A DNA stretch of 64,000 nt, taken from the NCBI GenBank assembly GCA_030770535.1, contig JASVEC010000027.1, positions 620,001 to 684,000 on the forward strand, given 5' to 3'. The notes below the pieces were generated by a model. That model did no database searches, was not told where the DNA came from, and saw nothing but the letters and a program-made list of their open reading frames with translations. Position 1 is the first letter of the stretch, and each line of letters starts with the position of its first letter. The DNA comes from Batkoa obscura (taxonomy: Eukaryota). The position numbers were made by a program, and so were the translations under genes. Below are positions 8,633-55,239 of the stretch, piece after piece.

Positions 8633-9616
8633 ATTCATTGTTAAACTTTCTCTATAAATTAATTTTCGCTATTAATCAAATTTAAAAATTCCTTTATAAT
8701 AAAATATAGCTGTTGACTTATATCATACTTGTAATATATCATTTGGTAGGTTTGTTTGTTTGTTTGTCTTGAGACCAATATTAATCATGTAATAATATAA
8801 TATTTTTTCATAAATTAAGGGCTACTTCTTTATTTCTATTCATTTTAACTAATATTAATATATGTTAATGAACCATTCAGGAGCTAACATCCTTTCAATA
8901 ATATAAAAAATATTAATATGTGAACAAACTGATGATAGATGTGATTTCATTCTTAAATATAAAATTATAATTTAAATTAAAGGTGCAATTTATACTATGT
9001 CATTTTTATATAAAATCGGATTTTAAGACTAAAGGTTTTATATGTTAAAATGTTGTCTAAAATATTGGTTTATAACAATTATATCATTAAGCTTTCTATT
9101 TTAACCGAAATATTACTCTCTTCTTTTTTAACATTGATCACTATATTGTATTTATTTTTAAATTATCTCTAAAAAAAATTCAAAATTATTATCATTTTAA
9201 ATTGGCATAAAAAGTAAATTAGTTTGTGGTGAAATATAAAAATATAAAGTAATAAAAATTCAAATATAAACAAAAGTCTAAGAATTTCTAAATCTACGTA
9301 GTTAATAGATAACTCATATTATATCATTTTTTTCAAAAAGTTTTAGTTAACATTAAAAAATTACTTCAAAATCCGTTAAAGTTTTTAAAAAAAAAGCTTA
9401 AAATTGCTAGTTTTAATTAAATAAAATAATGTACATTGAGCTTATGTTATAGCTCCTTGCTAATATAATTTTTGCATTTTATTGGTAACTAATATGCATA
9501 CTATATAACCAGCCATATTATAAGATGGCCTATAATACATATATATATTCAATAGGTTCTATAAGAATCTATAGAGTATAGTATCTGTGAAACTTAAAAA
9601 ACAAAGTAATATATGG

Positions 9617-10097
9617 TGTGAAATATCGCTTCATTAGCTCTAGGATTGCTTATAATATAATAATCAGTTCAGAGTTCCTTATATAGATTTGCTGTGAGAA
9701 TTGCTACCACCTGATCACGAAGAACTTATTGCCCACGTTTTAATGTCCATACTTGCCAACTATAATAAATTATAACTGTTATCATGTTCCGTATATACAG
9801 CCACCCAGTTGGAGTATAAAAGAGATTCTTCAACATAATAACCCAAGGGTTTTTAACTAAATTATTCCCTGATATTGTACTATTAATAAGCCCACTAAGT
9901 CTTTCTGACAATATTTTACATAGATTTTACAGTAGTACTGTCTATTCTATTTGTTTTACATAGTTCATAGCCTATTGTGCACTATTCTTACTAATTTAAG
10001 TCTATCTTAGTTACATAAACTAAGACTGTTCGACTCAAGGCAAGTTAATCAACCAAGAACTGCTTTTAACTCCTACCACTGAGTACCAACTTTCACA
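9617..10097 (+). mobile_element. Solo LTR, same gypsy lineage
   Basis: TGTGAAA...TTTCACA, similarity to the full LTR, ATGG TSD. Confidence 0.9.
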
Positions 10098-10099
10098 AT

Positions 10100-10195
10100 G
10101 GGGATGTATTTTTTTGTTTAAGAATTTTACTCAATTTTTTCGCTCAAATAGTGCTTAAAAAATGAAAAAGTGATGAAGCTAAAAAAAACATCACC
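10100..10195 (+). mobile_element. MITE family A, left junction hit by solo LTR
   Basis: Core match; reconstructed flanks ATAT/ATTT. Confidence 0.88.
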
Positions 10196-10354
10196 ATTTG
10201 TTTGTTTAGTTTTTTTAAAGCATAATCCTCAGACTTTAACTAAATTTGTGTCGAAAGTCTAACTTTTATAATGAACAGTTAGTTCCTACACAATCAAACT
10301 TAAACAACTGTAAAATATTGTTATTAAATTAATTTTATGATTGATCAAATATAT

Positions 10355-10451
10355 GATGATGTTTTTTTTGGTTTCATTGCCTTTTCCATTTTTTAAGCGC
10401 TATTTGAGCGAAAAAATTGAGTAAAATCCTTAAACAAAAAAATACATCCCC
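10355..10451 (-). mobile_element. MITE family A
   Basis: Core match; ATAT TSD. Confidence 0.88.
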
Positions 10452-28142: not shown

Positions 28143-28146
28143 ATAT

Positions 28147-28497: not shown

Positions 28498-29403
28498 CTA
28501 CCAACATTTAATACAAGTATAAACTTTCTTTGCTTCATTTGCAATACCCGTATGCAATACCAGAAGTAAACTTGAGTTTGCTAGAATACCAATAAGAAAC
28601 AAAATTTCTGCGAGCTGGTTCATAACAAGGATAGTCACATTCACTTCTCCATAGACATACTGAAAAATACCAGCAAAAAAATAAAGCAAAATAGAGCCAA
28701 ACATGCAAGTAGAATATGTAATCAAAATAGCGTATAATTTAATACAGACTAGCTTATAAGAAGAGAGCCTGCTATCTTTAAGTTTGGATGGATTTGGAGA
28801 TATTTCAATTTCAACGAAATTTTTCATATCAGTGATGTTTTTAGCTAATCTATAATAACAATAAGATATCACAGAAATTCCAATAGCAAAACTAGAAAGC
28901 AAATAATAATATGCAATTGATCCAACGATTGAATAAACTACTGGATATATACATATTAATTTGGAACTAGATACCTCCATTAAACGTTGCGATGCGCATA
29001 AAATCATTAAGATTGTATAAATTAATCCATTTATATGTATTGCTGGGCGTATGTATTTTGATAATTGAATATCCAAGACTTTGCATGTTCTTTCTATGGC
29101 TAAAAACACGCTTAATTGGATCTCATAGTAATAGGTTGTTGTAGTAAAAAAACCAAGGACTTGGCAACCCAACTCAATATCTAGTAAGCTTTCTTTCTTT
29201 ACAGCAGAATAAATCATATTTATTGTTACTACTATTGGCACAAGGTACTCTACAGATGCTATAGCAATAATCAATTTTAAATCTTTTGTTAATGGCTTAA
29301 TACGTGAAGACAAATAAATTAAAAAAGCATTTAATAGTATAGTGATGGCGATCAAGGCTATAGTAGCAATACCCAGAAATGCAAAGAATCCAGATTGACT
29401 CAT
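28498..29403 (-). CDS. Rhodopsin-class-like 7TM receptor (GPCR3)
   Basis: Paralog; GCQ, LAIERT, YCYY; first ATG at 29403 (track start 29433 is TTG). Confidence 0.8.
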   Translation of the reverse strand: MSQSGFFAFLGIATIALIAITILLNAFLIYLSSRIKPLTKDLKLIIAIASVEYLVPIVVTINMIYSAVKKESLLDIELGCQVLGFFTTTTYYYEIQLSVFLAIERTCKVLDIQLSKYIRPAIHINGLIYTILMILCASQRLMEVSSSKLICIYPVVYSIVGSIAYYYLLSSFAIGISVISYCYYRLAKNITDMKNFVEIEISPNPSKLKDSRLSSYKLVCIKLYAILITYSTCMFGSILLYFFAGIFQYVYGEVNVTILVMNQLAEILFLIGILANSSLLLVLHTGIANEAKKVYTCIKCW

Positions 29404-30168
29404 CTTAATATAATTTTGAAAAATGGGAGACAACTCTTATTTATATCTGAAAAATCAATACTAGTACTTATTATAGTAATAGCACAAAAGCCTGTATATC
29501 CCGTTCTTTATGTATTCCTCTAATAATCATGGAAAACAAAATAAAGTCTAATAGTTCTATTGATTTTACGTTCTATTCAATATCACTTACTAAAATCTAT
29601 TTAATATACTCCATTAAAGTTATTAGCTTAGTATACAAATTGGTTGTTATTGTTAAAGCTAGCGTGTTAGCATTGTAAAACTTAGTATAACAAATGACTG
29701 TATATTTTAAAGTAAAGCTATTGTTTTTATCATTTTTAAAGCTTATTGAATTTCACAACTCATAAAATTAGGATTTATTACTTTATAATTTAGTGTTCTT
29801 CAAAAAAAGGGAACTAATTTATTATATTATAGCATTCATACAAAAGTTTAATTATCTTTATAAAACAAGTAATAAAAAAATAGAATCACGATTCTTGTTA
29901 CTAAAAATATTAACTAGTTGAAGCTTTGAAGATGTTACCGAAAATATTATAAATGTTGCTTAGTAATTTAAATAAGATATCGGTTGCTTTTATCAAGTAT
30001 AGCTATTAAAGCATGGGAGCATTATATTGTAGGATGTGATTCTTTCTATCTTCGTGAAACTTCTGTAACAATTTCGTAAATTTTAATAATTCATTGTATC
30101 TCTCCTCTAAAATTTGTACAACTTTTAGTATTAAATTTGTTATTGTTCTTCCTTTTAATTTATTATAT

Positions 30169-30657: not shown

Positions 30658-31569
30658 CTACCAGCATTTAACTCTGGCATAAAATTTCTTGACTTCGTTC
30701 GCAATACCCGTATGTAACATTAGGAAGAAACTCGAATTTGCCAGAATACCAACAAGGAATAAAATTTCAGCAAGTTGATTCATAATAAGAATAGTTGCGT
30801 TTACTTTTCCATAAACAAAATGAAGGATACTATCTAATAAATGAAATAAAAAGGAGCCAAACATACAAGTGGTATAGATAGCTAAAATTGTATATAGCTT
30901 AATAAATACTATATTATATTTGGACTTTCTATCGCTTTTAGGCCTATTTATAGTAGAATTAGAGTTCATTTCAAGTTGTACAAATTCTTTCATCTTAGTT
31001 ATATTCCTAGCTAATTTATAATAGCAATAAGTGATAATCATAATTCCAAAGAGAAAACTAAATATTAAATAATAATACGTGACAAATCCAATAGTTGAAT
31101 TTACTACAGGATACATACATATTAATTCAGTAGCAGATGGTATCATTAAATGTTGTGATACACAATATATAGCTAATCCGACGTAAATTAATCCATTTAT
31201 ATGAATTATTATATATACGTATTTTGATAACTTCATCTCGGATATTTTACATAGCCTTTCCAAAGCTAAAAATACATTGATTTGAATTTCATAATAATAA
31301 GCTCCTGTTATAATAAATCCAAGCACTTGACAACCCATTTCAGTTTTGATTAGTTTAATGCCGTGTATAAAGTAGTATAGATAGTCAATAGATGTCACTA
31401 GTGGCGCACAAAGTTCTACTGAGGCTACCGCCATAATCAATTTCAAATCCGCTCCCAACGGTCTTACTTTAAGACAGAAAAATATTAGAAATGTGTTTAA
31501 GAATACAGCTACAAATGCCAAAGCTATGATGAAGTAGTTGATTGAAAAAAGAGAGTCATAATTCTCCAT
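30658..31569 (-). CDS. Rhodopsin-class-like 7TM receptor (GPCR4)
   Basis: Paralog; GCQ, LALERL, YCYY. Confidence 0.8.
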   Translation of the reverse strand: MENYDSLFSINYFIIALAFVAVFLNTFLIFFCLKVRPLGADLKLIMAVASVELCAPLVTSIDYLYYFIHGIKLIKTEMGCQVLGFIITGAYYYEIQINVFLALERLCKISEMKLSKYVYIIIHINGLIYVGLAIYCVSQHLMIPSATELICMYPVVNSTIGFVTYYYLIFSFLFGIMIITYCYYKLARNITKMKEFVQLEMNSNSTINRPKSDRKSKYNIVFIKLYTILAIYTTCMFGSFLFHLLDSILHFVYGKVNATILIMNQLAEILFLVGILANSSFFLMLHTGIANEVKKFYARVKCW

Positions 31570-33680
31570 TTAAAAAAATAAGCTAAAATTTAATTTTAGA
31601 AAAGTTTAAAGTAAAAAATTATATAAGCCTATTTATATAATAATTCATTATAATTAAGCTTCGTTTTATAAATAGAACTATTGTCTAAAATCTAACAAAA
31701 AGCGCACACTAACTTCTTTTGAGTCACTTTTTTCATTCAAATTTCTAATATTGGTGGATAAACCACTTAATATAGCAAGTTTAGTAAAAATATAAAGGAA
31801 TAGTCAAGTTTGATAATAACATAAAGAATAAAAGTAAAATATTTAAATGTACTATGCTATTATGCATAACAAAAGCATTTTTTGTTAAATATGAGATCAA
31901 ACTTGAGAATTTGTTTGAATAAAAGCCAATGAAACATTAATTAAATGATAATTTTTAGGAATAACTTCCAAATGCGCCACTTAAGTGACAAATGAGAAAT
32001 TTAAACAATGCTGCTAATCATTTAAACAATACTGTCAATCATTTAAATAATCTTATTGTTAATCCTTTACCCAACACTTATAGGTTGTTGAGGTTTTCTG
32101 AGTTCTTTTAAATAGAAGTTGATATCATATTCAATGTTATAGACTCATTTTATTATATACTTGAAAATACTCAATAAATTGAATAGTGAACTTTTTAAAA
32201 AAATTTGATGGTTACAAATTAATTTTTATACTTTTATTTAGTTAACACCCAATTTATTTTTAATTAATTTAACCATACACTAATAATAAGGGATGTGATT
32301 TAAGAATTGAAAAATATTAGAGAACATATATATTAAAATGTTTCAGCTATGTTCCAGGTAACCACCTGACATTGTAATTGTTTTCAATGTAAAGGTGTGG
32401 AAATAGTTCACCTTTCTCTTAATTCCTAATCCTACATTTATCTACTGCTTCTCCAGTAACCTTAATTACCGTCAATTAATTATATTTCAATCTTCAAAAT
32501 TTTCTATAAAAAATTAAAATGTTTTTTATTTCAATATCTTATTAATGATTTTGCTTAATTTTATACAGGGTAAAGATTGAAAAAAATAAGACATTCCATA
32601 TAGAATATCAAAAAAATATTTGATAATTGATGGGATTTTTTAGCGGAGTAGTTGTAACTTAATGACACTTTAATAACTAAATCATCTTTAATGAGTAATT
32701 TCCTTATTGGTGTTGTCAAAAGGACTCGAATTTTGAGCCTCAGTTGACACCTTTTTCAATAATAACTAATTTAAATTAAATTATAAAAATAGTTTAATCA
32801 AAATAAATAAAATTTTAGTAAACTTGGACTTGTTCACTCCTTTTGTGAATTATGTCCACTTTTCAACTACACACTTCCTTAGTGGCTCTCATTCAACCTC
32901 TTTATTTTAAACTAATAAAGTATAAAATCCTACGGCTTTTGAATTTAAAAAAAAGTATGGTAAACTATGTTAAAATTTTTAATTTTATAGTTTTAAATAA
33001 GCTATAATTTTTATCGTTATTTATATAATTATTAACAGTTAATCTAATTTTTGTTAATAACAATTAGTACAAATATTAATTTTAATCTCTTCTATAAGCT
33101 ATTTTATTTTAGTAAAATACTTACTCAACTGGGCTCAAGATTTAAAAAAAAGATTCGTATAATGAAGGTACTTATTTATCTCAAAGTTATTAATAAAACT
33201 ACTGTTTATTATAAATATTAAGAAGTAAAATTTTTGACTATTTTATCAATAAAATCAAATAAAGAAATAAAAGTAATTTATTGATTTTATTATTATCATT
33301 ATTATTAAAATTGCATTAAATTTAATTGTCCAGTATTTTTAATTTATCACGTTTGTATCAAGAAAAATATTTGAACAAACTGTAAAGAAACTTCAACAAT
33401 AATAATTCAAAACATACTTAGTCCTCTGGACTATCTACTGTTCACAGTATGAACATTCAGATCGAGATCCGGATACTGATTTCCTGACCCTCAATTCTTT
33501 GTAGGATAGTGCATGGCGTGGTTAACTGCTACCCAACCATCATTCTTAAGGCTTAATCCCAACTCCAAAGAAAGAAGCTCACATACTAAATGGCCATCCA
33601 GCTTTCTCCTCTTTATTTTTTTAATTTAGTAAAACACTTACCCTTTATCGGGTTCAAGGCTTTAAAAAAATTCAAAACAT

Positions 33681-33778
33681 GGGAGTGTTTTTTTGGTTTC
33701 ATCACTTTTTCCATCTTTTGAGCGTTATTTGAGTGGAAAAATTGTTAGTAAAATTCTTAAACATAAAAATACATCCCC
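33681..33778 (-). mobile_element. MITE family A, junction hit by solo LTR
   Basis: Core match; ACAT TSD restored when the LTR is removed. Confidence 0.9.
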
Positions 33779-33780
33779 AC

Positions 33781-34244
33781 TGTGAAAGTTGGTACTCAGT
33801 GGTTGGAGTTAAAAGCAGTTCTTGGTTGATTGACTTGCCTTGAGTCGAAAGGTCTTAGTTTATATAACTAAGATAGACTTAAATGAATAAGAATAATACG
33901 TAATAAGTTACGAACTATGTAAAACAAATAGAATAGACAGTACTACTGTAAAATCTACGTAAGACGTTGTCAGAAAGACTTAGTGGCTTTATTAATGGTA
34001 CGATATCAGGGAGTAATTCAATTAAAAAGCCTCGAGTTATAATGTTGAAGGATCTCTTTTATACTCCAATAAGTATGGATATCAAAACGAGAAGATAATA
34101 TTGTTTGCAATATGAAGTTAGAAATTCTCGCAGCAAATCAAAATAAGGGACTCTGACTTGATTGTGTTTGAACTTAAGAATACAGCAACTTGAGTGATTA
34201 TTGTGTTATAATCAATCCGAGAGCTAATAAAGCAATATTTCACA
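33781..34244 (-). mobile_element. Solo LTR, same gypsy lineage
   Basis: Reverse-oriented LTR, CCAC TSD. Confidence 0.9.
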
Positions 34245-34761
34245 CCACATAATAAATAAAATTATCTTACGTTTGAATATTAATTTAATAAGTAAAAAAA
34301 AAAAAGTACTCTATAACACCTTCGGAAACGAGAATCGCTTTATAGTAGATATGAATAAGACGGAAAAAATGGTAGGGCCTTGGCTAAATGATGTGATTCA
34401 ATATGTTATTCAAGTTGATATTGATAAAGGTATTCTTTAAAAAACAATGTAAAACAGTGAAATAAAAACAATTTTTTTATAAAATCTTGAAGGAGTTAAA
34501 CCCCCAAGTGGTTTATTGTTGGAGATAAGAAAAAGAATAAAGAACCTGAGTGATAAGTGAACTAGGGACTAACGAAGGAGAGAAAGGAGCTAAGGAAGAA
34601 ATGAAAATTTGATTAATTCGGCTTGACCTGCTTTAGACTTGAGAAAGTTTAACTTTATAGAGTCAAGCTCTAATCTATATAACGCAACCCAAGAGTAGAA
34701 AAAAAACGATTTTTTTTATTAATTGAAATAAAACATCAAATTTATAAGGTTTTATATTTAG

Positions 34762-35667
34762 TTACCAACATTTAATATTGGAACGAAATTTTTTGACTTC
34801 ATTTGCAATACCTGTATGTAACATTAAAAAGAAGATCGAATTTGCCAAAATACCAACAAGAAACAAGATTTCACCAAGTTGATTTATAATAAGGATAGTT
34901 GCGTTTACTTTACCATAAACAAAATGAAGAATACTATCTACTAAGTGGAATAAAAAGGAGCCAAACATACAAGTGGTATAGATGGCTAAGATTGTATACA
35001 ATTTGATAAAAACTATATTAAACTTATGATTTTCATTACTTTTAGGTCGATTTGTATTACAATTAGTTTCAATTTCTACAAACTTTTGCCTATTTGTTAT
35101 ATTCCTAGCTAATTTATAATAGCAATAAGTGATAATCATAATTCCAAAGAGAAAACTAAATATTAAATAATAATACGTGACAAATCCAATAGTTGAATTT
35201 ACTACAGGATGTACACATATTATCTCAGTAGCAGATGGTATCATTAAATGTTGTGATACACTGTAAATTGCTAATCCAATAAAACCTAATCCGTTTAAAT
35301 GTATTGCCAAATATATGTATTTTGATAATTTAATCTCGGATATTTTACATAGCCTTTCCAAAGCTAAAAATACATTTAATTGAATCTCATAATAATAGGC
35401 ACCTGTTATAATAAATCCTAGAACTTGGCAACCTAGATTAATTTTAATCAACTTTATCCCATGTATAAAGTAATACAGATAATCAATGGATGTCACCAAT
35501 GGTGCACAAAGTTCTACCGAGGCTACCGCTATAATCAATTTCAAATCCTTTGAAAATGGTCTCACTTTAAAGCAGAAATAGATCAAAAATGTGTTTAAAA
35601 AAACAACTACAAATGCTAAAGCTATGATGAAGTAGTTGATTGAAAAAAGAGAGTCATAATCCCCCAT
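34762..35667 (-). CDS. Rhodopsin-class-like 7TM receptor (GPCR5)
   Basis: Closest to GPCR4, with homologous flanks (tandem duplicate). Confidence 0.8.
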   Translation of the reverse strand: MGDYDSLFSINYFIIALAFVVVFLNTFLIYFCFKVRPFSKDLKLIIAVASVELCAPLVTSIDYLYYFIHGIKLIKINLGCQVLGFIITGAYYYEIQLNVFLALERLCKISEIKLSKYIYLAIHLNGLGFIGLAIYSVSQHLMIPSATEIICVHPVVNSTIGFVTYYYLIFSFLFGIMIITYCYYKLARNITNRQKFVEIETNCNTNRPKSNENHKFNIVFIKLYTILAIYTTCMFGSFLFHLVDSILHFVYGKVNATILIINQLGEILFLVGILANSIFFLMLHTGIANEVKKFRSNIKCW

Positions 35668-44253: not shown

Positions 44254-45076
44254 AAGAGGACAATAAGGAGTATAGAGAATCAAATTATTTTTTGTTGAAT
44301 AAATGCGAGTATAAATTAATTTTATGTATGTATAATAGTTTGATTTATTAAGATATTTCAATAAAAAAATCATATTTTATAGTTTATAGTTTATAGTTTA
44401 TAGTTTATAGTTTGTAGTTTATGGAGGGGTCTTTTTTGAAAAATTAATATCAACTCAGTTTAAAGATAAAAGTTATTATAAGATAATATCGTTAAAAATA
44501 TAAAGAATAAAAATAAATACTGAGATTGATATAAACTTAAAATATTAAAAATAATTCAAATAAGTTAACTTTATAACAATATTTAATGCTGTTATAACCT
44601 TTAGAATTTTATTTTATTTTATTTTATTTTATTAAACTGATTTTTAATATTCAAAAATAATTATTAGTAAAAATGACTATATTGATAGAAAATATGGGGG
44701 TGTCCGAATTGGTTTCATTTTTTTATCCAATTTTTAAATATTTATATTTTAAAAACTTTGCTTAAAATTCTATAAAAATAAATTCTTTATTAAAAGCCAA
44801 AAGTACCCGACACAGTTTTAAATTATTTTGTTATAATTTATATTGTCAATTAGCGGAATTTTTATTAAATTTAATATAAATTCCTGGATTAGTAAAGATT
44901 TTACTAATATAGCCTGTATAGTGATATTAGTCAAAGTTGTAATATGTAAATAAATATATGCTTTTATATAGCTTTATTAAGAAATATTTATTATTAATTG
45001 TTTTATATTCAACACTACAGATTTGCTATCAAATGAATAAATTATTTTAATGTTATAATTACATTATTAATATATC

Positions 45077-45218
45077 GCTAAGTTAATAAATAGCTGCATG
45101 GGAGGGAGTGGTTAGCCCCAAAACTATAATTAACCATCCCTATGTAATACAAGCAGTGTATTAATAGTTTTTACTTATTATTACAACTACTTGCTCTTTG
45201 ACTATTTATTAACTTAGC
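45077..45218. mobile_element. 142-bp foldback element nested in the Sola-like transposon
   Basis: Perfect 17-bp IR GCTAAGTTAATAAATAG; TATC directly repeated on both flanks. Confidence 0.55.
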
Positions 45219-45275
45219 TATCAATAATTTAAGTAATATCAACATTTAATAATTGATTTCTATCATCTAATAAGC

Positions 45276-45748
45276 TGTGAAATATTGCTTTATTTAGCTC
45301 TCGGATTGATTATAACGCAACAATCACTTAAGTTGCTGTGTTCTCAAGTTCAAATACAATCAAGTCAGAGTCCCTTATTTTGATTTGCTGCGAGAATTTC
45401 TAACTTCATATTGCAAGGAATAACATCCTCTCGTATTAATATCCATATTTATTGGAGTATAAAAGAGATTCTTCAATATGATAACTCCAGGTTTTTTTTT
45501 TTTTTAATTGGATTACTCCCTGATAACGTATCATTAATAAAGTCACTAAGTCTTTCTGACAACATCTGATATAGATTTTATAGTAGTATCTTCCATTGTA
45601 TTTGTTTTACATAATTTGTAGCTTACTACATACTATTTCTATTAAGTTAAGTCTACCTTAGTTATATAAACTAAGACCCTTCGACTCAAGGCAAGTTAAT
45701 TAAGCAAGAGTAGCTTTTAACTTCGGCCACTAAGTATCAACTTTCACA
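45276..45748 (+). repeat. 5' LTR
   Basis: TGTGAAA...TTTCACA termini; direct repeat of 52465-52937. Confidence 0.95.
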
Positions 45749-45750
45749 CT

Positions 45751-45767
45751 TGGCGCTCATAGCTGGG
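45751..45767 (+). promoter_or_regulatory. Primer-binding site
   Basis: TGGCGCTCATAGCTGGG, 2 nt after the 5' LTR, complementary to a tRNA 3' end ..UAUGAGCG-CCA; tRNA identity not determined. Confidence 0.75.
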
Positions 45768-45866
45768 AAAGCTCCTATAACTACACTAGGTAGCCTTTAT
45801 AGCCTTTCCTTTACGGTTCTTACCGCGTAACCACCCCAACCCTCCAATCCCCTTAATTCACAGACT

Positions 45867-48368
45867 ATGATCAACAATAGCCTCATACCCTATTTTGCTG
45901 ACTCAAGATATCTCCTTGATAACCGTCAACAATTGACTATCACTGAATATGACATGGGTAGTAGTGATGAAGAAGAAGCTAGTGTTCTGACCCCAGAAAT
46001 AGACACTGCTGCTTTAAATCAAGCTGCCCTACCTCCTCATGTTGTAAGCTCGGTCGTTACCTATGGAGCTGTTCCTATGCACGTTCTTAATGGTGATCTC
46101 TCTGCTTGGAGACAATACCAAAGTAGTAGCTCCAGTACCCAAATTACTTTTCGTGCTCAGTACCAAACGGTACCTACCCTTTCCCACGTTCAACAATATT
46201 TAGTAGAGTTCTTGCACAACAAACTCATCCAGATGGTTGGTGAACTCAACCGTCTCTCAACTCACAATAATGAATTGTCTACCTCTTTAAGCTCGCTTCT
46301 AGGTACGGTTAATAATCTCTCCATGGTCATCAACCAAAACAATGATGTCATCACCCCATCAAATGAATTCCATACCAGTAAGTTTAATGAATTCAACCAA
46401 AGGCTCAATGATACTGTTAGTTATGAAGTATATAGAGATTTGGCAAGAGAAGTAGGAGACTTCAAGGCTGAATTGCATCAGCTTGATACTGCCTTACATT
46501 CCGAACTCATTAAGATCTCTGACGAGATCAACCTTTCCCTCACTGAGATCAATGACCATACTGCTCAAAGGATCTCAGATATCGACGGAAAAGTGAAAAT
46601 CACTTTTGCAGAACTTAATAGATCGTTGATGACTAGATTCACCGAGTATAATCATCGTTTATCCTATGTTGAGCAATCCCCTGCGTCTGCATCAGCCAAA
46701 GATGCCAGAATCTTGGCTTTAGAACAAGATTTAGCTGCTTGTAATGTACAACTGACTCAACAAGTGACCACCATTAGCCAGCTCATCACTTCCAATAATA
46801 ATTTGAAGGAACAAATTAGATTAGATAAAGAGCAGTCAGCGGCTGACTGGGAAGAAATTTCGCGTAATATACAGAGTACCAAGGAAGAGCTTATTATTCT
46901 TCAAACTAAGGTAGCTTCCAATACCAGCCAAATCAAGGCATCTTCTTGTAATTGTAGAAAGGAACGTATCGCTGTTTCAGCACCTCACTCCAGACTCTCG
47001 ACTTATAGAGATGTTCCGAGATATAATATGTATGATCTAGGTGATGGTACCACAGAATCTATTCTTGACACTGAATATCAAATGAACCCTAAGTATCGTG
47101 GTTCTATTCACTTGGTACAACCGGATGATCAACCCAAGAAAGGAGAAAGTCCACCTCAATTACTTCCTAGAATGACCACTGCACCTACTGATGGTATTTA
47201 CTCAAGAAACCCTGCTACAGGATCTAATGCTGAGCCAATAAGATCTCATGTACAACCCTATGCTGAAGTTAACCTGGACAATCCTTTTAACAATAGTAAC
47301 AAAAACAAGTTGCCATATATTGCTCCAAAAATCACTCAACATGTACCCTATGAGCAATCTTCATCTCACTACGTACAACCCGAGCGGATTCCTGTTCAAA
47401 ATAACTATGGTATATCACATAATAATCATGACGCCTATTATGGCCATCCTGGACCTTCTGGTAACAATCTAAACCCGCATAGCTTCTCAACATACCCCCA
47501 CAATTATCCGAGAAGCTCCCAACCCGTTAATACCAAGTTTAATTTTAGTCTCCTATTCAATCCAAATGAAATCACTGCTACTACTTTCATCAAAGCGCTA
47601 GAAGTTCATCTTGATGCCAACAATTGGACCTACGAGTGTCGCCCTCAATGTCTCTTAGGTCAGCTTCAAACAAACGAGCTTTCCTGGTGTATGACCCTAC
47701 CTGATGACTTACGCAGTAACTGGAACTCTTTTAAAAAGGCATTCATAGATCACTATGATTCCGATGTAAAAATGGAAGCAAAAAAGGCAGCCCTTTTATC
47801 TTTACGACTAGACGATGAAAGCAAACTTGAAAATTACATTGCAAACGTAAAAAATCGTGCTAATGCTTTAATTTCCTGTGGGAAGTTAAGCGTTACAGAC
47901 CTCCGCCTGGCCTTCCAACGAAACCTTCCAAGTCACATCGCACGTCTTTTTCTAGACCCTCATCATAATATCACCAATATTACTCAGATGATAGAGATTT
48001 TAGAGCTATACCTCGGAAGTCCAAAAAGCGAAGTTAAATCCAAGAAACTATACGTTAATCATATAGATAAAGAAACGGACAACAACGAATATCTTCATTG
48101 CTTTGCCATTACACAACAGCACTACTCCAACCATCGTAAATCTCGAGTATTTACTGGATGCTGGAACTGTGGTGAACATGGACATATTGCCGTCAATTGT
48201 ATTGAACCAAAGCCAGAAAATGGTATTTTTAAATATTACTTTGAAAAAAATGTTCGCAATAGTAAACATTTTAACAAAAATAAACAAGTTAATCACCTCA
48301 ATTATAATTATAATGATGGTGACACTGAAAAGTTTGTTGACCCCAACAGCGAGTCAAAAAACTTCTAA
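45867..48368 (+). CDS. gag: Gag with long coiled-coil N-terminal region
   Basis: Capsid-like W..FKKAFIDHY segment, zinc knuckle CWNCGEHGHIAVNC. Confidence 0.9.
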   Translation: MINNSLIPYFADSRYLLDNRQQLTITEYDMGSSDEEEASVLTPEIDTAALNQAALPPHVVSSVVTYGAVPMHVLNGDLSAWRQYQSSSSSTQITFRAQYQTVPTLSHVQQYLVEFLHNKLIQMVGELNRLSTHNNELSTSLSSLLGTVNNLSMVINQNNDVITPSNEFHTSKFNEFNQRLNDTVSYEVYRDLAREVGDFKAELHQLDTALHSELIKISDEINLSLTEINDHTAQRISDIDGKVKITFAELNRSLMTRFTEYNHRLSYVEQSPASASAKDARILALEQDLAACNVQLTQQVTTISQLITSNNNLKEQIRLDKEQSAADWEEISRNIQSTKEELIILQTKVASNTSQIKASSCNCRKERIAVSAPHSRLSTYRDVPRYNMYDLGDGTTESILDTEYQMNPKYRGSIHLVQPDDQPKKGESPPQLLPRMTTAPTDGIYSRNPATGSNAEPIRSHVQPYAEVNLDNPFNNSNKNKLPYIAPKITQHVPYEQSSSHYVQPERIPVQNNYGISHNNHDAYYGHPGPSGNNLNPHSFSTYPHNYPRSSQPVNTKFNFSLLFNPNEITATTFIKALEVHLDANNWTYECRPQCLLGQLQTNELSWCMTLPDDLRSNWNSFKKAFIDHYDSDVKMEAKKAALLSLRLDDESKLENYIANVKNRANALISCGKLSVTDLRLAFQRNLPSHIARLFLDPHHNITNITQMIEILELYLGSPKSEVKSKKLYVNHIDKETDNNEYLHCFAITQQHYSNHRKSRVFTGCWNCGEHGHIAVNCIEPKPENGIFKYYFEKNVRNSKHFNKNKQVNHLNYNYNDGDTEKFVDPNSESKNF

Positions 48369-48416
48369 GTGGGAGGGTAAATGAGGATCCCCCTTCCACG
48401 AAATCAAAAATTCCTC
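48356..48416 (+). promoter_or_regulatory. -1 ribosomal frameshift signal
   Basis: A AAA AAC heptamer in gag frame, 6-nt spacer, 9-bp stem GTGGGAGGG/CCCTTCCAC. Confidence 0.8.
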
Positions 48417-51400
48417 CTGATCCAGATGAAAGCACTGAATTAGACTTCGAAATTAACACGCTTTCAAAATTTGACCCCTCTACCCTCATCCTAGCACTAC
48501 CTTCCAAAATTCGTGGCAGACCCAAGAAGAAAAAGGTTCCCGTCGTTGAAATTCCTAAAGTCATTCCACGTCGAATTGATAAGTCACCTGATAACTCTAT
48601 CAATGCCCCTGATTCTGCCTTGATAAATGAAATTGCTAAACCTTACATTTCACAATTATCCGATTTATCCAAACTGTCCCTTACACAAAGTGAACTAGAT
48701 AATACACACCAGTGGTTAACTAATGTTACCATCCCAATTCCTCTAGACAAAATCCTAACTGGAGAATCAGACTTAGCAATTGCATTTAGAAACATCATTA
48801 GAGAATATCAGAATCCAAATAAACAGATCCTCTTAGTAAACCTCGATGCCAAAGCCAACTCCACCGATTGTACTTACATTAATGCGTCGATTTACAAAAA
48901 AAATGTGCGTATAATATTAGATAGCGGAGCTCCCATCAATTTCATATCGAGTCGTCTGGTAAAACGATTACCCTTTAAACCGGATATAGATTGTTCGGAC
49001 ACCTTCGGTACAGCCGGAACCGGAACCGTCACGGCACTAGGAGCATACTCATCAATCCCTATTAAGTTTGGAAAGCTAACTTTAGCCTTTCCAGCGATAG
49101 TGTTGGAAAGCGAAGGTTACGACTTCCTCCTAGGCACCGAATTCTTTGTGAAACATGGTTGCCAATTATTGTACGATCAAAATATCTTAAAAGTATTAGA
49201 TCAATCCATTCCAATGTACTACAATAAGCCAAGGAACCTAACCATTAACAACATAAGCAACAAAACTCCTGACTGTCGTATAATGAGCTATCGGACTAAC
49301 AATAAATCAGTTGACGTTACTCTCTGCGGATTAGAATCTGTGATTTATCAATATCCAGATATAGCATATAAGCAGTCTGGAATCCCCATTATTTCCCCTA
49401 AGAACTTACTAATACCGCCTAAATCACAGGTAGTACTAGACACCGAAATCTCATTATGGGTACCTAAGGAGTTCCATCTATCTATATACAGTATAGAAAG
49501 TGTTTCAAGATTAGAACCTCTAACTATGCCCGGGATTTTAGGTAATAACATGAATGAGACTATAAAACTACTGCTTGCCAACATTACCGAAAAAGATATC
49601 AAAATCTCTAGAGGTCAACAGGTTGGTACAATCCACGTAGAAAATAACATTGTGATTAATACTTTCAGTAAATTTGCAACACTAGAAGAATTCCAAATTT
49701 ATGAAGAAGCCCCTAATAACCAAACCCTGTTTGTTGAGAAAGACACTATTAAACATCTAAACCCAGATGAACAACTTCAATTTTATAAATTGCTGGAAGA
49801 ATATAAAGACGTCTTTGCAACTTCAGAAGAAGATATTGGCTGTGCCCGCAATACTAAACATAAAGTATATACATGTGATTCACTACCTGTTGCAACTAAA
49901 GCATATCGTAAATCTCAGTCTGAACTTAAGGCAGAACGAGAAGAAGTCCAAAAACTTTTAAGATTAGGTTTGATTATCCCTTCAAATAGTCCATGGGCCT
50001 CTCCCCTTATGATTGTTAAGAAAAAAGATGGAACTAATAGAGTAGTTATGGACTATAGGAAACTCAACAAAATCACAAAGAAGGATGTATATCCACTACC
50101 CAGAATAGATGATGCTGTTGACCGCTTACAAGGTGCAAAATACTTTTCAGCAATGGATCTAATCTCAGGATACTGGCAGGTAGAAATGGATCCGGAAGAC
50201 CAAGAGAAATGCGCTTTGATTACTTCCGAAGGACTATTTCAACCAACGAGGATGCCACAAGGCCTTTCAAACGCTCCTGCTACATTCCAACGTCTTATGG
50301 ATAATACACTAGGTGATCTTAAGCTCTCATGTGTACTAATTTACTTAGACGACTTGAATGTGTTCTCGAAGACTTTCGTGGATCACCTAAATCACCTTAA
50401 AGCAGTATTCGAACGTCTTCGCCAAGCTAACTTAAAGTTAAAGCCAAAAAAATGCTCATTTTTCCAAACTAGTCTGGAATTTTTAGGCTACAAGGTCTCT
50501 GACAAAGGTTTAGCTCCTATTCCTAATAAATTAGATGCAGTAAAAGAGCTTTTCCCCCCAACTACGATGAGAGAAGTACAAGTATTCCTCGGACTAATGA
50601 ATTACTACCGAAGATTTATAAAAGATTTTTCGAACTTAGCCACTCCACTATTCCAATTGTTAAAGAAAGAAGTCAAGTTTCAATGGAAAGAAGAACACCA
50701 ACAAGCCTTTGAAGAACTTCGCGATAAGCTGCTTAACGCCCCAGTGTTGATGTTTCCAAATTTCTCAAAGCCCTTCTCCCTGCATACCGACGCTAGCCTA
50801 ACGGCAGTTGGAGGTGTTTTAAGTCAACTGGATGATGACAACTGCGAGCATCCAATAGCTTATACCTCTAGAACCTTATCGAAGCATGAGAGGAATTACA
50901 CTACGACAGAGAAGGAATGCCTTGCAATTATTCATGCTATAAAGGCATTTAGACCGTATATCTATGGCACTCACTTTACTGTTATTACCGACCATGTTTC
51001 CCTAAAGTGGTTATATTCAATCACTAATCCTGAAGGACGTCTAGCTAGGTGGGCTCTAAAACTACAATCGTATAGTTTTGATATAGTATATAAGCCAGGT
51101 AAAGATCACCAAAATGCAGATGGGCTTAGTAGGTTACCCAGGATCTGTCTAGCCACCCCCATAGATGATGATCTGTACAACCTATTGGGTAATAAAAATA
51201 AGTGGCCGCAACAACAACCTGAGCTTAAACAATGGCTTGAGAAAAATGCCCAGAATATCATTGTCAAAAGTAATGCATTGTACAAAAAGATTAAAGGAAC
51301 ATATATTCCGTATATTAAGCCTTCTTCGCGGCTATCTGCATGTCAACAGTTTCACAATGTGATCTGCGGGCATTCAGCCTTCCAAAAAACATATGACACC

Positions 51401-52378
51401 ATGAAAGTTTCCTGCTATTGGGAATCAATGATACCAGACTTAGAAGACTTCATAAATAATTGTGATGTTTGTAAAAGAGAACAAAGTAGGATAAAAGTAA
51501 CAGCTTACAAGTTTATTTTACCTAAACATGCATTCCACACGGTAAGTATAGATGTGATAGGCCCTCTTTGTGAAGCTTCTTCAGTAAGAGGAAATAAGTA
51601 TATCGTTGTAGCTATAGACCATCTAACTAAGTGGGTTGAAGCTAGAGCAATACCAAACCAGACTTCCTTCCACATATCTAAATTTATATATGAAGATATT
51701 ATTTGTAGACATGGAAGCCCACAGGTGATACTTACCGATAATGCTGCCAATTTTGTTAATCTAGTTCTCCCAAAATTAGCCAGACTAATGGCCATAAGAC
51801 ATTCTACTGCAGCTCCGTATCATCCAGAAACTAATGGAATGGTTGAGAGAGTAAACGGTACACTAATACGTATACTAAGAAAACTAGCTTTTGACAAAAC
51901 TAGCTGTTGGGATGAATATCTACATTCCGCTATTTTAGCATATAGATATTCAGTACACAGTATTACTAAAAAGTCTCCTTTTATTATGCTTTATGGGAGA
52001 CACCCTGGGCTCCCCATATCTTTTGCCCCTTTAATCGCTAAACAAGGCGAGATAAGCCCTGACATATACTTGGCTAAACTAACAAAAAAATTGATAGCTA
52101 TCCAAGTTGAAGCCTTTAACGCATTAACAGATTCGAAGATAAAGAGGTATCAGCAAGATATGTCCAGACTTCCTAGTCTAGCCACTTTCAAGGTAGGAGA
52201 TATTGTTTATTTGTATCCTTCCTACAACCAACCTAGAAAAAATAAACTGGCACTGAAATGGGACGGACCATATGAAATCATACATAAACACTTGTATGAT
52301 AGCTATTCGATTAAACATAAAGGAACAAGCGTCATTTATAATCGAGTCCATGCCAAGTTTCTCAAATCAGCAATGTGA
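48362..52378 (+). CDS. pol: Pol (PR, dUTPase-like, RT, RNase H, IN), expressed by -1 frameshift
   Basis: Frame open from the slippery site through the track ORF; LDSGA, YLDD, TDAS, HHCC, D-D-E, WDGPY; no chromodomain. Confidence 0.93.
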   Translation, partial: LLSGRVNEDPPSTKSKIPPDPDESTELDFEINTLSKFDPSTLILALPSKIRGRPKKKKVPVVEIPKVIPRRIDKSPDNSINAPDSALINEIAKPYISQLSDLSKLSLTQSELDNTHQWLTNVTIPIPLDKILTGESDLAIAFRNIIREYQNPNKQILLVNLDAKANSTDCTYINASIYKKNVRIILDSGAPINFISSRLVKRLPFKPDIDCSDTFGTAGTGTVTALGAYSSIPIKFGKLTLAFPAIVLESEGYDFLLGTEFFVKHGCQLLYDQNILKVLDQSIPMYYNKPRNLTINNISNKTPDCRIMSYRTNNKSVDVTLCGLESVIYQYPDIAYKQSGIPIISPKNLLIPPKSQVVLDTEISLWVPKEFHLSIYSIESVSRLEPLTMPGILGNNMNETIKLLLANITEKDIKISRGQQVGTIHVENNIVINTFSKFATLEEFQIYEEAPNNQTLFVEKDTIKHLNPDEQLQFYKLLEEYKDVFATSEEDIGCARNTKHKVYTCDSLPVATKAYRKSQSELKAEREEVQKLLRLGLIIPSNSPWASPLMIVKKKDGTNRVVMDYRKLNKITKKDVYPLPRIDDAVDRLQGAKYFSAMDLISGYWQVEMDPEDQEKCALITSEGLFQPTRMPQGLSNAPATFQRLMDNTLGDLKLSCVLIYLDDLNVFSKTFVDHLNHLKAVFERLRQANLKLKPKKCSFFQTSLEFLGYKVSDKGLAPIPNKLDAVKELFPPTTMREVQVFLGLMNYYRRFIKDFSNLATPLFQLLKKEVKFQWKEEHQQAFEELRDKLLNAPVLMFPNFSKPFSLHTDASLTAVGGVLSQLDDDNCEHPIAYTSRTLSKHERNYTTTEKECLAIIHAIKAFRPYIYGTHFTVITDHVSLKWLYSITNPEGRLARWALKLQSYSFDIVYKPGKDHQNADGLSRLPRICLATPIDDDLYNLLGNKNKWPQQQPELKQWLEKNAQNIIVKSNALYKKIKGTYIPYIKPSSRLSACQQFHNVICGHSAFQKTYDTMKVSCYWESMIPDLEDFINNCDVCKREQSRIKVTAYKFILPKHAFHTVSIDVIGPLCEASSVRGNKYIVVAIDHLTKWVEARAIPNQTSFHISKFIYEDIICRHGSPQVILTDNAANFVNLVLPKLARLMAIRHSTAAPYHPETNGMVERVNGTLIRILRKLAFDKTSCWDEYLHSAILAYRYSVHSITKKSPFIMLYGRHPGLPISFAPLIAKQGEISPDIYLAKLTKKLIAIQVEAFNALTDSKIKRYQQDMSRLPSLATFKVGDIVYLYPSYNQPRKNKLALKWDGPYEIIHKHLYDSYSIKHKGTSVIYNRVHAKFLKSAM

Positions 52379-52453
52379 TTCAATGAGTACAATTCGTAAC
52401 TAGTCAAATTGCTCTTGGTAAGTAAATCATAAAAATTCACTACATCAAATCAT

Positions 52454-52464
52454 AGGGAGGGAAA
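52454..52464 (+). promoter_or_regulatory. Polypurine tract
   Basis: AGGGAGGGAAA abutting the 3' LTR. Confidence 0.85.
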
Positions 52465-52937
52465 TGTGAAATATTGCTTTATTTAGCTCTCGGATTGATT
52501 ATAACGCAACAATCACTTAAGTTGCTGTGTTCTCAAGTTCAAATACAATCAAGTCAGAGTCCCTTATTTTGATTTGCTGCGAGAATTTCTAACTTCATAT
52601 TGCAAGGAATAACATCCTCTCGTATTAATATCCATATTTATTGGAGTATAAAAGAGATTCTTCAATATGATAACTCCAGGTTTTTTTTTTTTTTAATTGG
52701 ATTACTCCCTGATAACGTATCATTAATAAAGTCACTAAGTCTTTCTGACAACATCTGATATAGATTTTATAGTAGTATCTTCCATTGTATTTGTTTTACA
52801 TAATTTGTAGCTTACTACATACTATTTCTATTAAGTTAAGTCTACCTTAGTTATATAAACTAAGACCCTTCGACTCAAGGCAAGTTAATTAAGCAAGAGT
52901 AGCTTTTAACTTCGGCCACTAAGTATCAACTTTCACA
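52465..52937 (+). repeat. 3' LTR
   Basis: TGTGAAA...TTTCACA; preceded by PPT. Confidence 0.95.
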
Positions 52938-54598
52938 AAGCTACTTACTTGCTTACTAAATATTGAAACTTTTAAATTCTCAGTTATTTTTGTAAGATAA
53001 GCTGGGGTTGACCTTTTAATTTTTCTATCCTCTATAGACTCTATAACTTTAATTGAAATTATGTCGCTTTTTTTTGATCTATCAGATACTGGATAACAGT
53101 ATAGTTTTTTACCACGTTTAATAAAATGTAAATACTTTTTAATACCTTTTATTTTTATTATTTTTTTTGTATCTTTGTTTCTTTCATACTTTTTAAAAAT
53201 TATATTTGTTTTCCCATTATTGACAGTTGAGTTATTAAATCTATTATTTTCACAAACAAAAATCTCAAATTTTGAAATTAATTGATCAATATCTTCTATT
53301 TTACCTAATGCTTCAAGACTATTTTTCCACTGTGAAAGATTTCCAAAATGCCCGTCAACTATACTTTTTCCATGATGCTCAGCAAAAAAATTAAGATCAA
53401 TATTTAAACTACTATTTATTTTATGACTTTCTTCAAATACATAATGTAAAAACTCTTGAGATTTAAAATGATATCCTGTATCTGCCCATATATTAATTTT
53501 TGTAAACTTTTTAAACAAAGGCTCTTTAGATATTAAATCAATCAAACAATCTCCTGCATATGCTGAATCATGATTTAATATTTCAGATAAATAATCAAAA
53601 TAAACTTTGCCTATTGTTTTATCGTTTTTTAAATACAAAACGCCAAACCCTAATACTGATATAGCTTGTTTGTTATAATGATCTAAGTTTATTGGATCTG
53701 GTCTTGTTCCTATTTCCATATTTTGTTTAAAGTCTAAAATTATTATACAACTTCTATTATTTAATTTTTCAATAGTTTCATTAAGTATGTTTTTTTGAGT
53801 ATCAACACAAAATTCATGTAATTTATATAACCTTTTTTCTTTATTAAAAGATTCCTGTATCTCTGCTTTATTTTCTGTCGCTGTATTTATTTTATTTTCA
53901 AATAACTTTTTTCTAACTGTATACTGGGCACATATATTACATAAATCTGTTTTTCTTGCTGGATTTTTAAAATTATTTGGTATATATTTGAAAAATGTTG
54001 ACCTAGCTACTGCTTTATCTTTTAAATCATTAAAATACTTACTGTATATCATCCTTCTACTTTTATTTAATATATATATATTCTCTGACGAATATTTATC
54101 ATTATTTCTTTTACTAAATCTTGATGAAATAGTTGAATTATCAAGTAAATATTGTATAATAATCTCGATTTGCTCATCTTTAATTTTTTTTGTATTTTTG
54201 ATAGTAGGTCGTAATGTTGGTATTTTATTACTATTAATTATTTTTGAATAATCATATTGATTTTTACTTATATTAAATCCAAAACTTTTACATTCATCAA
54301 AAGAATATACTGAAGCTATAGTCGATAATAATGCTACTTGTTGGTTTTTATTTCCTGTTTCCCTTAAAACACTAATTTTATACATTGCTTGATTAAGTTT
54401 GTTATTATTAATAGTAAAATTTAATAATATTTCTTTTCTTTTTTTTGTTTTATTATAAAATTCCATAAACTTTGGGCAATTGTGAATAGTTGCTAAAATT
54501 GATGTAAATGAATTACAATGTTTATATAATGTGCTTCTCCCTACCGTATTAAAGTTTTTAGAAATTCCATTTCGAAGTTTAGTTATAAAAGCTTGCAT
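52919..54598 (-). CDS. Sola-like DDD transposase, C-terminus truncated by gypsy insertion
   Basis: DLCNIC, ILDFKQN, WADTGYHFKS, FFAEHHGKSIVDGHFG motifs; native C-terminus LLDDRNQLLNVDIT* lies at 45229-45273. Confidence 0.8.
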   Translation of the reverse strand: MQAFITKLRNGISKNFNTVGRSTLYKHCNSFTSILATIHNCPKFMEFYNKTKKRKEILLNFTINNNKLNQAMYKISVLRETGNKNQQVALLSTIASVYSFDECKSFGFNISKNQYDYSKIINSNKIPTLRPTIKNTKKIKDEQIEIIIQYLLDNSTISSRFSKRNNDKYSSENIYILNKSRRMIYSKYFNDLKDKAVARSTFFKYIPNNFKNPARKTDLCNICAQYTVRKKLFENKINTATENKAEIQESFNKEKRLYKLHEFCVDTQKNILNETIEKLNNRSCIIILDFKQNMEIGTRPDPINLDHYNKQAISVLGFGVLYLKNDKTIGKVYFDYLSEILNHDSAYAGDCLIDLISKEPLFKKFTKINIWADTGYHFKSQEFLHYVFEESHKINSSLNIDLNFFAEHHGKSIVDGHFGNLSQWKNSLEALGKIEDIDQLISKFEIFVCENNRFNNSTVNNGKTNIIFKKYERNKDTKKIIKIKGIKKYLHFIKRGKKLYCYPVSDRSKKSDIISIKVIESIEDRKIKRSTPAYLTKITENLKVSIFSKQVSSFVKVDT

Positions 54599-54689
54599 TT
54601 TGTTTTTATTTTAACAAAAAACAAAGTCAAATAACTATATAATTATATATTATATAGCTATTGAATATTTAATAAAAAATACAAAACAC

Positions 54690-55049
54690 TGTGAAATATC
54701 GTTTCATCATCTCTGTGATTGATTATCGCATAATAATCACTTAACTTGTTTACAAAACTAGTTGAGTATAAAATAGATTCTTCAACATAATAGCTCAAGG
54801 CTTTTTAATTAAATTGTTCCCTAATATTTTACTTTTAATAAAGCCACTAAATCTTTCTGATAATATCTTATGTAGATTTTATAGTAATATCCTGTATTCT
54901 ATTTATTTTACATAGCTCGTAGCTTATTGCGTATTACTCCTATTGATTTAAGTCTATCTTAGCTACATAAACTAAGGCCTTTTGACTTACGGCCAGTTAA
55001 CTAAGCTAGAGCTGCTTTCAACTCCAATTGCTGAGTACTAACTTTCACA
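54690..55049 (+). mobile_element. Internally deleted solo LTR inside the Sola-like element
   Basis: TGTGAAA...TTTCACA, about 110 bp shorter; flanks AACAC/AACAT, TSD imperfect. Confidence 0.85.
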
Positions 55050-55239
55050 AACATATAATCAAAAAAATAAAATAAAATAAAATAAAATAAATAAAATAAG
55101 TCTTTAAGTTAAATTTTTATATTTAATTTTAAGCTTTTTAAATTTAGCTAATCATACATTAAAGACTTACAAATTTAAAAACTTAAAATTTGGATTAATT
55201 TCTAGTTAAATTCTGAAACCAATTCGGACACCCCCATAT

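What the first reader, a model, noticed from the sequence alone, without database searches (positions are those of the whole stretch)
33677..34250. Gypsy LTR inserted exactly on the junction of a DNA-transposon (MITE) end: candidate site-specific targeting system
Seen: read on the minus strand the site is AT-GTGG-[LTR]-GTGG-GGATGT..MITE. The 4-bp LTR TSD is the last 2 nt of the MITE's TSD plus the MITE's first two G. Removing the LTR restores ACAT on both sides of the MITE, so the MITE came first. The solo LTR at 9617-10097 has the same register, orientation and MITE end, but a different TSD and flanks, so the two are independent events. Known: some LTR elements target defined sites through host DNA-binding proteins (Ty3 at Pol III starts). 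Inference: this integrase is positioned by the Sola-type terminus, by a transposase bound there, or by its nick. I know of no described case of this.
Basis: partly seen in the sequence, partly recalled or inferred. Interest (0 to 1): 0.88.

Follow-up and report, generated by a model that had tools for sequence, protein, structure and literature searches.

The report
Retrotransposon that targets DNA-transposon ends
In a fungal genome, two separate copies of a retrotransposon sit at the same base position on the tip of a small DNA transposon, and a related strain likely holds about sixteen such junctions, so this retrotransposon likely aims part of its insertions at another mobile element's ends, a target not found described for its class.

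Summary
Two solo Gypsy LTRs (33781-34244, 9617-10097) have 4-bp duplications centred exactly on the end of a ~98-bp MITE family, both with U5 facing the MITE. They differ in duplication, flanks and LTR sequence (85.5% identical), so they are independent; chance is about 1e-4 or less. New: the window's other two copies of this LTR family both lie inside a 2.5-kb autonomous DDE transposon (44696-55235) with MITE-like ends, so 4 of 4 sit on this family. No assembly was available. In contigs of related run X1, about 16 LTR U5 ends continue into the MITE end against 49 with unrelated AT-rich flanks (chance 0.01-0.03); X3 shows 1. These contig sequences were not visible, so this is indirect. Targeting is partial, not site-specific in the strict sense. 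A plain RTGG preference does not explain it; a longer ATRTGG preference cannot be excluded. A protein bound at the transposon end is my favoured mechanism (0.4) but nothing shows it; the integrase lacks a chromodomain and there is no Pol III gene. 'Sola' is likely but not tested against reference proteins. New variant of targeted LTR integration.

The parts
33677..33680 (+). MITE target-site duplication, left copy (ACAT)
   Evidence: sequence
33681..33778 (+). 98-bp MITE (family A), target of locus 1; its right end faces the LTR
   Evidence: 19 blast hits to this family in the window; TSD table
33777..33780 (+). LTR target-site duplication, copy 1 (CCAC = last 2 nt of the MITE + first 2 nt of its TSD)
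33781..34244 (-). solo Gypsy LTR, 464 bp, TG...CA, U5 end next to the MITE
   Evidence: 87.9% to the LTRs of the full-length element; polarity from PBS and PPT of that element
34245..34250 (+). LTR TSD copy 2 (CCAC) plus AT, the rest of the MITE's right TSD
9611..9616 (+). locus 2: MITE TSD ATAT (9611-9614) overlapping LTR TSD ATGG (9613-9616)
9617..10097 (+). solo Gypsy LTR, 481 bp, U5 end next to the MITE
10100..10451 (.). 352-bp element of two outward-facing MITE units, ATAT at 10452-10455; target of locus 2
44696..55235 (-). autonomous DDE transposon, about 2.5 kb without the two LTR insertions; perfect 22-bp TIRs, TSD ATAT/ATAT; TIR matches the MITE left end at 16 of 22
52943..54598 (-). 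transposase ORF, 552 codons up to the Gypsy insertion, which cuts it about 13 codons before its stop; RNase H-fold DDE
45276..52937 (+). full-length Gypsy: identical 473-bp LTRs, TSD AAGC, PBS, gag 45831-48368, pol 48341-52378 (PR, dUTPase, RT, RNase H, IN), PPT; not at a transposon end but inside the autonomous element
51281..52375 (+). integrase, 365 aa, ends with the C-terminal domain; no chromodomain
54690..55049 (+). older solo LTR (360 bp), imperfect duplication (ACAC/AACA), upstream of the transposase ORF inside the autonomous element

Best explanation
Two independent integrase-type Gypsy insertions sit with their 4-bp duplication centred on the end of a MITE, and a lineage of this family likely directs a minority of its insertions there because a protein bound at intact ends of this DNA-transposon family likely recruits and orients the integration complex. 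Shown: the two junctions, their independence, clean TG...CA ends with 4-bp duplications, and that all four family copies in the window lie on this transposon family. Indirect: up to about a quarter of U5 ends in run X1 continue into the MITE end, with few or none in the opposite orientation. Inferred: the recruiter (the family's own transposase, or a host protein that reads the two-box terminus) gives the polarity, while the flexible CA step that spans the MITE/flank boundary fixes the register, as 4-bp-stagger integrases favour a central pyrimidine-purine step. The rest of the insertions go to AT-rich DNA. The likely benefit is a gene-free, very abundant landing site in a gene-dense genome. 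That targeting is real I put at about 0.8; that it works through a bound protein at about 0.4.
For: Window: 2 of 4 at the exact register, chance 4e-5 to 2e-4; the other 2 of 4 inside the autonomous element, the family covering 8.2% of the pre-insertion window. Run X1 (query held only 13 nt of MITE end and TSD): 18 contigs run over the ends, 2 of them accounted for by the right flank, leaving about 16 at the MITE side, against 49 with loose AT-rich flanks at the U5 end; 0.013-0.026 of 65 expected by chance. Controls: X3, similarly MITE-rich (318 vs 379 loose MITE right ends), gives 1; random flanks would reach 9 of 13 matches in 0.05 of 65; a simulation gave about one run-over unitig per true junction. 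Polarity: the consensus of 31 loose U3 ends in X1 has no G run, which would appear if 8 or more ran into a MITE (P 0.055 at 8, 0 of 4000 at 12). The two junction LTRs share their last 60 nt at 96.7%, against 78-83% to the non-junction copies. Central YR preference for 4-bp duplications: PMC4422553, section 6. Precedent for positioning by bound host proteins: PMC8632968, PMC5371812 (passages).
Against: The 16 contigs were counted, not read; they may include left ends and copies made by duplication or conversion, and at least locus 1 is shared with X1 (table 8, record 8), so X1 is not fully independent. 331 loose-end rows were not shown, so the denominator is a minimum and non-MITE CCAY flanks are unseen. 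49 of about 65 U5 ends in X1 and 2 of 4 window copies are not at the junction. X3 shows only 1. 19 of 58 ATRTGG sites in the window are ends of this family, so direct reading of 6 bp would give a similar share (21 of 65). The integrase aligns to Ty3 integrase only up to residue 1442 of 1547 and so lacks the chromodomain-like module Ty3 uses for tethering. No motif is shared between LTR and MITE or TIR beyond shuffles. A transposase sitting on its own cut site might block the target (inference).
Confidence: 0.4

Rival explanations
1. Direct reading by the integrase: it prefers a short asymmetric sequence or shape (AT-RT-GG, a flexible step between AT-rich DNA and a G run next to an A-tract). 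MITE ends are simply the commonest such site in a 26.5% GC genome. Targeting is real, no partner protein is needed.
For: 19 of 58 ATRTGG sites in the window are family ends; the central step is CA at both loci, the type favoured by 4-bp-stagger integrases; no tethering module and no shared LTR/TIR motif.
Against: The other two window sites (AAGC; ACAC/AACA) do not resemble it; the 49 other U5 flanks in X1 show no C run in their consensus; a two-fold symmetric complex reading DNA directly should use both orientations (own knowledge), yet U3-facing junctions appear to be fewer than about 8 of 31.
Confidence: 0.3
2. Transposase-made lesion: a nick or kink at the transposon's 3' end lies at the exact centre of the 4-bp duplication, where the integration complex must bend its target, so cleavage intermediates are captured.
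For: The centre of both duplications is the MITE/flank boundary, where DDE transposases cut the transferred strand (own knowledge); a cognate-type transposase is in the window.
Against: Neither integrase cut (2 nt inside on one strand, 2 nt outside on the other) is at the boundary itself; both target MITEs kept intact ends; such intermediates are short-lived; it does not explain polarity. Sola cleavage chemistry is unknown to me.
Confidence: 0.12
3. A few rare founder junctions were multiplied by duplication or by gap repair that copies MITE end plus LTR between MITE copies, so the X1 count overstates independent targeting.
For: Would explain one fixed register and one polarity; the two target MITE ends are 97% identical over the last 40 columns (rank 4 of 153 pairs, with ties) and the U5 ends 96.7%; X1 sequences were not seen.
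Against: The two window loci cannot be donor and copy: each LTR duplication matches its own site, LTRs differ by 14.5% and two large indels, whole MITEs are only 86% identical (rank 55 of 153); only one X1 contig was seen joining the LTR to the locus-1 flank.
Confidence: 0.12
4. No targeting: insertions survive only in non-coding, repeat-rich DNA and the shared register is chance or an RTGG bias.
For: Only four insertions in the window; the pattern was picked after the fact; RTGG-only gives P 0.015 for 2 of 4.
Confidence: 0.06

Closest known systems
Ty3 of Saccharomyces cerevisiae (TFIIIB/TFIIIC-directed integration)
   Same: Ty3/Gypsy integrase (phmmer E 1e-13 to 7q5b over residues 12-362); integration in a 2-3-bp window with set direction and a bent target (PMC8632968 passages).
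   Different: No tRNA or Pol III gene in the window and no A/B box in 18 of 18 MITE units; the integrase lacks Ty3's chromodomain-like module; 4-bp duplication; only a minority of copies are on target.
Tf1 of Schizosaccharomyces pombe (Sap1-directed)
   Same: Gypsy element placed by a sequence-specific DNA-binding protein, with orientation-dependent sites (PMC5371812 passages).
   Different: Target is a host promoter factor site, not a transposon end; Tf LTRs carry the Sap1 site themselves, whereas no LTR/TIR shared motif was found here.
Tx1L of Xenopus and other non-LTR elements that target other TEs
   Same: A retrotransposon inserts at a fixed position of another transposable element (general statement in PMC8869645; the Tx1L/Tx1D detail is recalled).
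   Different: Non-LTR, endonuclease-primed insertion with sequence-specific cutting; here an LTR element with a DDE integrase and partial specificity.
IS4321/IS5075 (Tn21-family TIRs) and IS231A (Tn4430 ends)
   Same: One mobile element targets another's terminal inverted repeat (IS4321: reference title seen in PMC11187229; IS231A: reference titles only, the TIR targeting is recalled).
   Different: Bacterial insertion sequences, RNA-guided (IS1111 family) or DNA-bending readout; not retroelements.
Nested plant LTR retrotransposons
   Same: Non-random nesting into other elements (PMC6911290 passages).
   Different: Regional bias into other LTR elements and a weak palindrome preference; no base-exact register on a DNA-transposon end in the passages seen.

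Membership tests
Ty3/Gypsy LTR retrotransposon | pol order protease-RT-RNase H-integrase | tested here: met
   Pfam on 48341-52375
Ty3/Gypsy LTR retrotransposon | TG...CA LTRs, PBS, PPT, 4-6-bp TSD | tested here: met
   TSD 4 bp in 3 of 4 insertions, imperfect in the fourth
Chromovirus | chromodomain after the integrase | tested here: not met
   no Pfam chromo hit; ORF stops after the C-terminal domain
Ty3-type Pol III targeting | target at a Pol III gene start | tested here: not met
   0 tRNA genes, no Rfam hit at gathering score, 0 of 18 MITE units with A/B box patterns (recalled patterns)
Tethered integration (Tf1/Sap1, Ty3/TFIIIB type) | base-exact register and polarity relative to a bound site | tested here: met
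   2 of 2 window junctions; X1 counts, indirect
Tethered integration (Tf1/Sap1, Ty3/TFIIIB type) | integrase binds a factor that sits on the target | not testable with these tools
   needs biochemistry
MITE | short, non-coding, TIRs, TSD, high copy, autonomous partner with similar ends | tested here: met
   95-103 bp units, mostly ATAT TSDs, 19 window hits, hundreds of distinct ends per run, 16 of 22 match to the autonomous TIR
Sola superfamily | RNase H-fold DDD/E transposase without a named Pfam family | tested here: met
   model pLDDT 88.5, best folds IstA and intasomes; no Pfam hit for the window protein, as PMC5751038 states for Sola and several other superfamilies
Sola superfamily | 4-bp AT-rich TSD and 5'-GRG termini (Sola2; definition recalled) | tested here: met
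   ATAT/ATAT and GGGGG termini; the defining paper was not held
Sola superfamily | sequence similarity to reference Sola transposases | not testable with these tools
   no named Sola protein among hits; 21 of 103 aligned homologues match DUF7869, whose link to Sola is recalled only

The most novel reading that the evidence does not exclude
A fungal Gypsy lineage has evolved to use the transposase-bound end of a Sola-like DNA transposon as its landing mark: integrase is recruited by the other element's transposase and inserts with base-exact register and fixed polarity, a retrotransposon parasitising a DNA transposon's machinery.
Probability: 0.2. Interest if true: 0.88.

Novelty: new variant of a known kind. 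Interest (0 to 1): 0.63.

Why it matters
Base-exact targeting by LTR retrotransposons is known from a few cases that use host transcription or replication factors. A target defined by another mobile element's end would add a new class of safe landing site and a direct interaction between class I and class II elements. The integrase is short and lacks the known tethering module, so whichever mechanism holds (partner protein or direct reading with polarity) it is a compact system for studying how an integrase gains specificity, and is testable in vitro. A young full-length copy with identical LTRs is at hand. If the Sola call holds it also extends that superfamily to Zoopagomycota; PMC5751038 lists Sola in fungi almost only from Rhizophagus.

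Tried and rejected
No assembly is held for this window, so no genome-wide register plot. U5-end pattern: 2 hits in viral contigs, no LTR similarity; 0 hits in metagenome contigs. Pol-based scan: 79 loci, all distant (33-54% identity), none matching the LTR, MITE or TIR; only L034 showed both LTR ends with flanks, uninformative. Earlier findings: nothing in 3 look-ups. Integrase-transposase complex: no model was obtained, no evidence either way. Atlas gave no answer. First transposase fold with 4 sequences failed (pLDDT 32). PDB sequence search with the transposase profile: 0 hits. Rejected: one duplicated segment; MITE inserted after the LTR (TSDs do not match that way); MITE end acting as a primer-binding site of a non-autonomous element (both window copies are solo LTRs with site-matched duplications); Pol III targeting; shared LTR/TIR binding motif. 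Runs X2 and X4 were laid only, where MITE contigs hid the junction signal. Papers not held: the Sola description, the DDE survey, the Tf1/Sap1 paper, Tx1L, IS4321.

Full report
1. Observation. The sequence is as described. Locus 1: MITE 33681-33778 with ACAT on its left, then a 464-bp solo LTR (33781-34244, minus strand) between two copies of CCAC, then AT. The duplication is the MITE's last two bases plus the first two of its TSD; removing the LTR restores ACAT on both sides. Locus 2: LTR 9617-10097 between two ATGG, on the end of a 352-bp element made of two outward-facing MITE units with ATAT on both sides. Polarity comes from the full-length copy, whose 5' LTR is followed by a primer-binding site and whose 3' LTR is preceded by a purine run: U5 faces the MITE at both loci. 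The loci are independent: LTRs 85.5% identical with 36- and 53-bp indels, flanks no more alike than shuffles, target MITE units 86% identical, rank 55 of 153 pairs. The window holds four insertions of this family. With 22 end-like sites counted in 55,017 pre-insertion bases, 2 of 4 at one register has probability 2.4e-7, or 4e-5 to 2e-4 if the first register is free within 10 bp of any end.

2. Setting. The window is 26.5% GC; the three closest homologues of its transposase are named from Neoconidiobolus thromboides, so the host is likely that fungus or a close relative. PMC10515909 (passages) gives that genome 13.5% repeats and 0.01% Ty3. The LTRs belong to a Gypsy element at 45276-52937 with identical LTRs, TSD AAGC, gag, and pol with protease, dUTPase, RT, RNase H and integrase. 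The integrase matches Ty3 integrase over residues 12-362 (Ty3 1093-1442 of 1547) and then stops, so it lacks the chromodomain-like module that contacts Brf1 in Ty3 (PMC8632968 passages).

3. The two non-junction copies both lie inside one autonomous DNA transposon, 44696-55235, about 2.5 kb net, with perfect 22-bp TIRs and ATAT/ATAT. The full-length Gypsy cuts its transposase ORF about 13 codons before the stop; the older solo LTR lies just upstream of the ORF. The protein has 976 relatives at E 0.001, conserved DFK-N, W-D and H-K motifs, a confident model (pLDDT 88.5) and RNase H-fold DDE matches (IstA E 2e-5, intasomes, Mos1). Its TIR matches the MITE left end at 16 of 22 with the same two-box spacing. 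So 4 of 4 family insertions lie on or in this transposon family, which covers 8.2% of the pre-insertion window (noticed after the fact, two of the four are in the same element, and selection against genic insertions inflates it). TSD, termini and fold fit Sola (Sola2 by recalled definition); no reference Sola protein could be compared.

4. Beyond the window. No assembly is held. Four runs of related strains hold the region as contigs. I laid 2 of the 4 on 33768-34300, which has only 13 nt of MITE end and TSD before the LTR. In X1, 18 contigs run over the ends; two cover the right flank to its end, leaving about 16 that align from the LTR through the MITE end. 49 contigs leave the U5 end into unrelated AT-rich DNA and 31 leave the U3 end likewise. 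Expected by chance among 65: 0.013-0.026. X3 has a similar MITE load (318 against 379 loose right ends), mostly diverged LTR copies (7 of 850 laid records at 99% or more, against 185 of 2375 in X1) and gives 1, which bounds stray MITE contigs. Random flanks would reach 9 of 13 matches in 0.05 of 65 cases. A simulation under assumed divergences gave about one run-over unitig per junction (13-22 for 16 junctions). Limits: the 16 were not read, may include left ends or autonomous ends, 331 loose-end rows were hidden so 25% is an upper figure, X3's U5 total is not shown, and X1 shares at least locus 1 (record 8). Polarity: if 8 or more of the 31 U3-end contigs entered a MITE end, G would show in the consensus (P of no G 0.055 at 8, 0 of 4000 at 12); it does not.

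5. Mechanism. Clean ends and 4-bp duplications point to integrase, not break repair (established knowledge). The central step of both duplications is CA, and 4-bp-stagger retroviral integrases favour a central YR step (PMC4422553, abstract and section 6); this can fix a register but not a several-hundred-fold excess (300-1200). An RTGG-only preference predicts 3.3 of 65 (26 of 508 sites are family ends) and is disfavoured. A 6-bp ATRTGG preference predicts 21 of 65 (19 of 58 sites) and cannot be excluded, though the other two window sites and the 49 X1 flanks do not resemble it. I favour a bound protein (0.4) because of the polarity, the all-or-none pattern, the two copies nested in the autonomous element, and the shared U5 end of the two junction LTRs (96.7% over 60 nt against 78-83%), which suggests a lineage-specific trait. 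Against it: no tethering module, no shared LTR/TIR motif, no interaction evidence. Rivals: direct reading 0.3, transposase lesion 0.12, multiplication of founders 0.12, chance 0.06.

6. Comparison and novelty. It works like Ty3 or Tf1 targeting (PMC8632968, PMC5371812; passages) but is not Pol III-directed (0 tRNA genes, no A/B boxes in 18 of 18 units) and is not a chromovirus. Elements that target other elements are known among non-LTR retrotransposons (PMC8869645 passages) and bacterial IS (reference title in PMC11187229). Four full-text searches (listings only, plus passages of PMC6911290) showed no LTR element with a base-exact preference for a DNA-transposon end; the library lacks most subscription papers, so this is not proof of absence. 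Also seen as passages, without bearing on the result: PMC4455052, PMC5199201, PMC10294476, PMC6199540. No supplements were read.

7. Verdict. Observation confirmed; partial targeting likely real (about 0.8); mechanism open. New variant of a known kind; interest 0.63.

Noticed in passing
window 44696-55235: Autonomous Sola-like transposon; a homologue is named from Smittium angustum, suggesting a wider Zoopagomycota family that PMC5751038 did not report.
   Followed up: partly
window 28047-28244 and 55236-55239: Members of the transposon family abut each other sharing one ATAT; head-to-tail MITE joints appear in 18-25 contigs per run in one row, table 5.
   Followed up: no
window 48341-52378: The Gypsy pol carries a dUTPase-like domain between protease and RT (Pfam E 6e-5); gag and pol overlap in the -1 frame with a slippery-type heptamer deduced from the two translations.
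   Followed up: no
window 33781-34244: This LTR looks mosaic: U3 part closest to the full-length copy (92-96%), U5 part closest to 9617 (90-97%), as template switching between subfamilies would give.
   Followed up: partly
window 54690-55049: Older solo LTR with an imperfect duplication (ACAC/AACA, or a 5-bp pair differing at one base).
   Followed up: no
window 34245-34400: Run X1 holds two versions of this flank at single-copy depth, one joined to the LTR; X3 and X4 show only the other version.
   Followed up: no
window 5148-6458, 23907-25148, 39043-40650, 57181-58797, 59159-60127: Five long-ORF GH18 chitinase genes.
   Followed up: no
window 17637-18548, 25613-26527, 28498-29436, 30658-31569, 34762-35667, 62353-63264: Six related ~300-aa single-ORF membrane proteins (DNA repeats); one of the two scanned has a weak 7tm_1 hit.
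   Followed up: no
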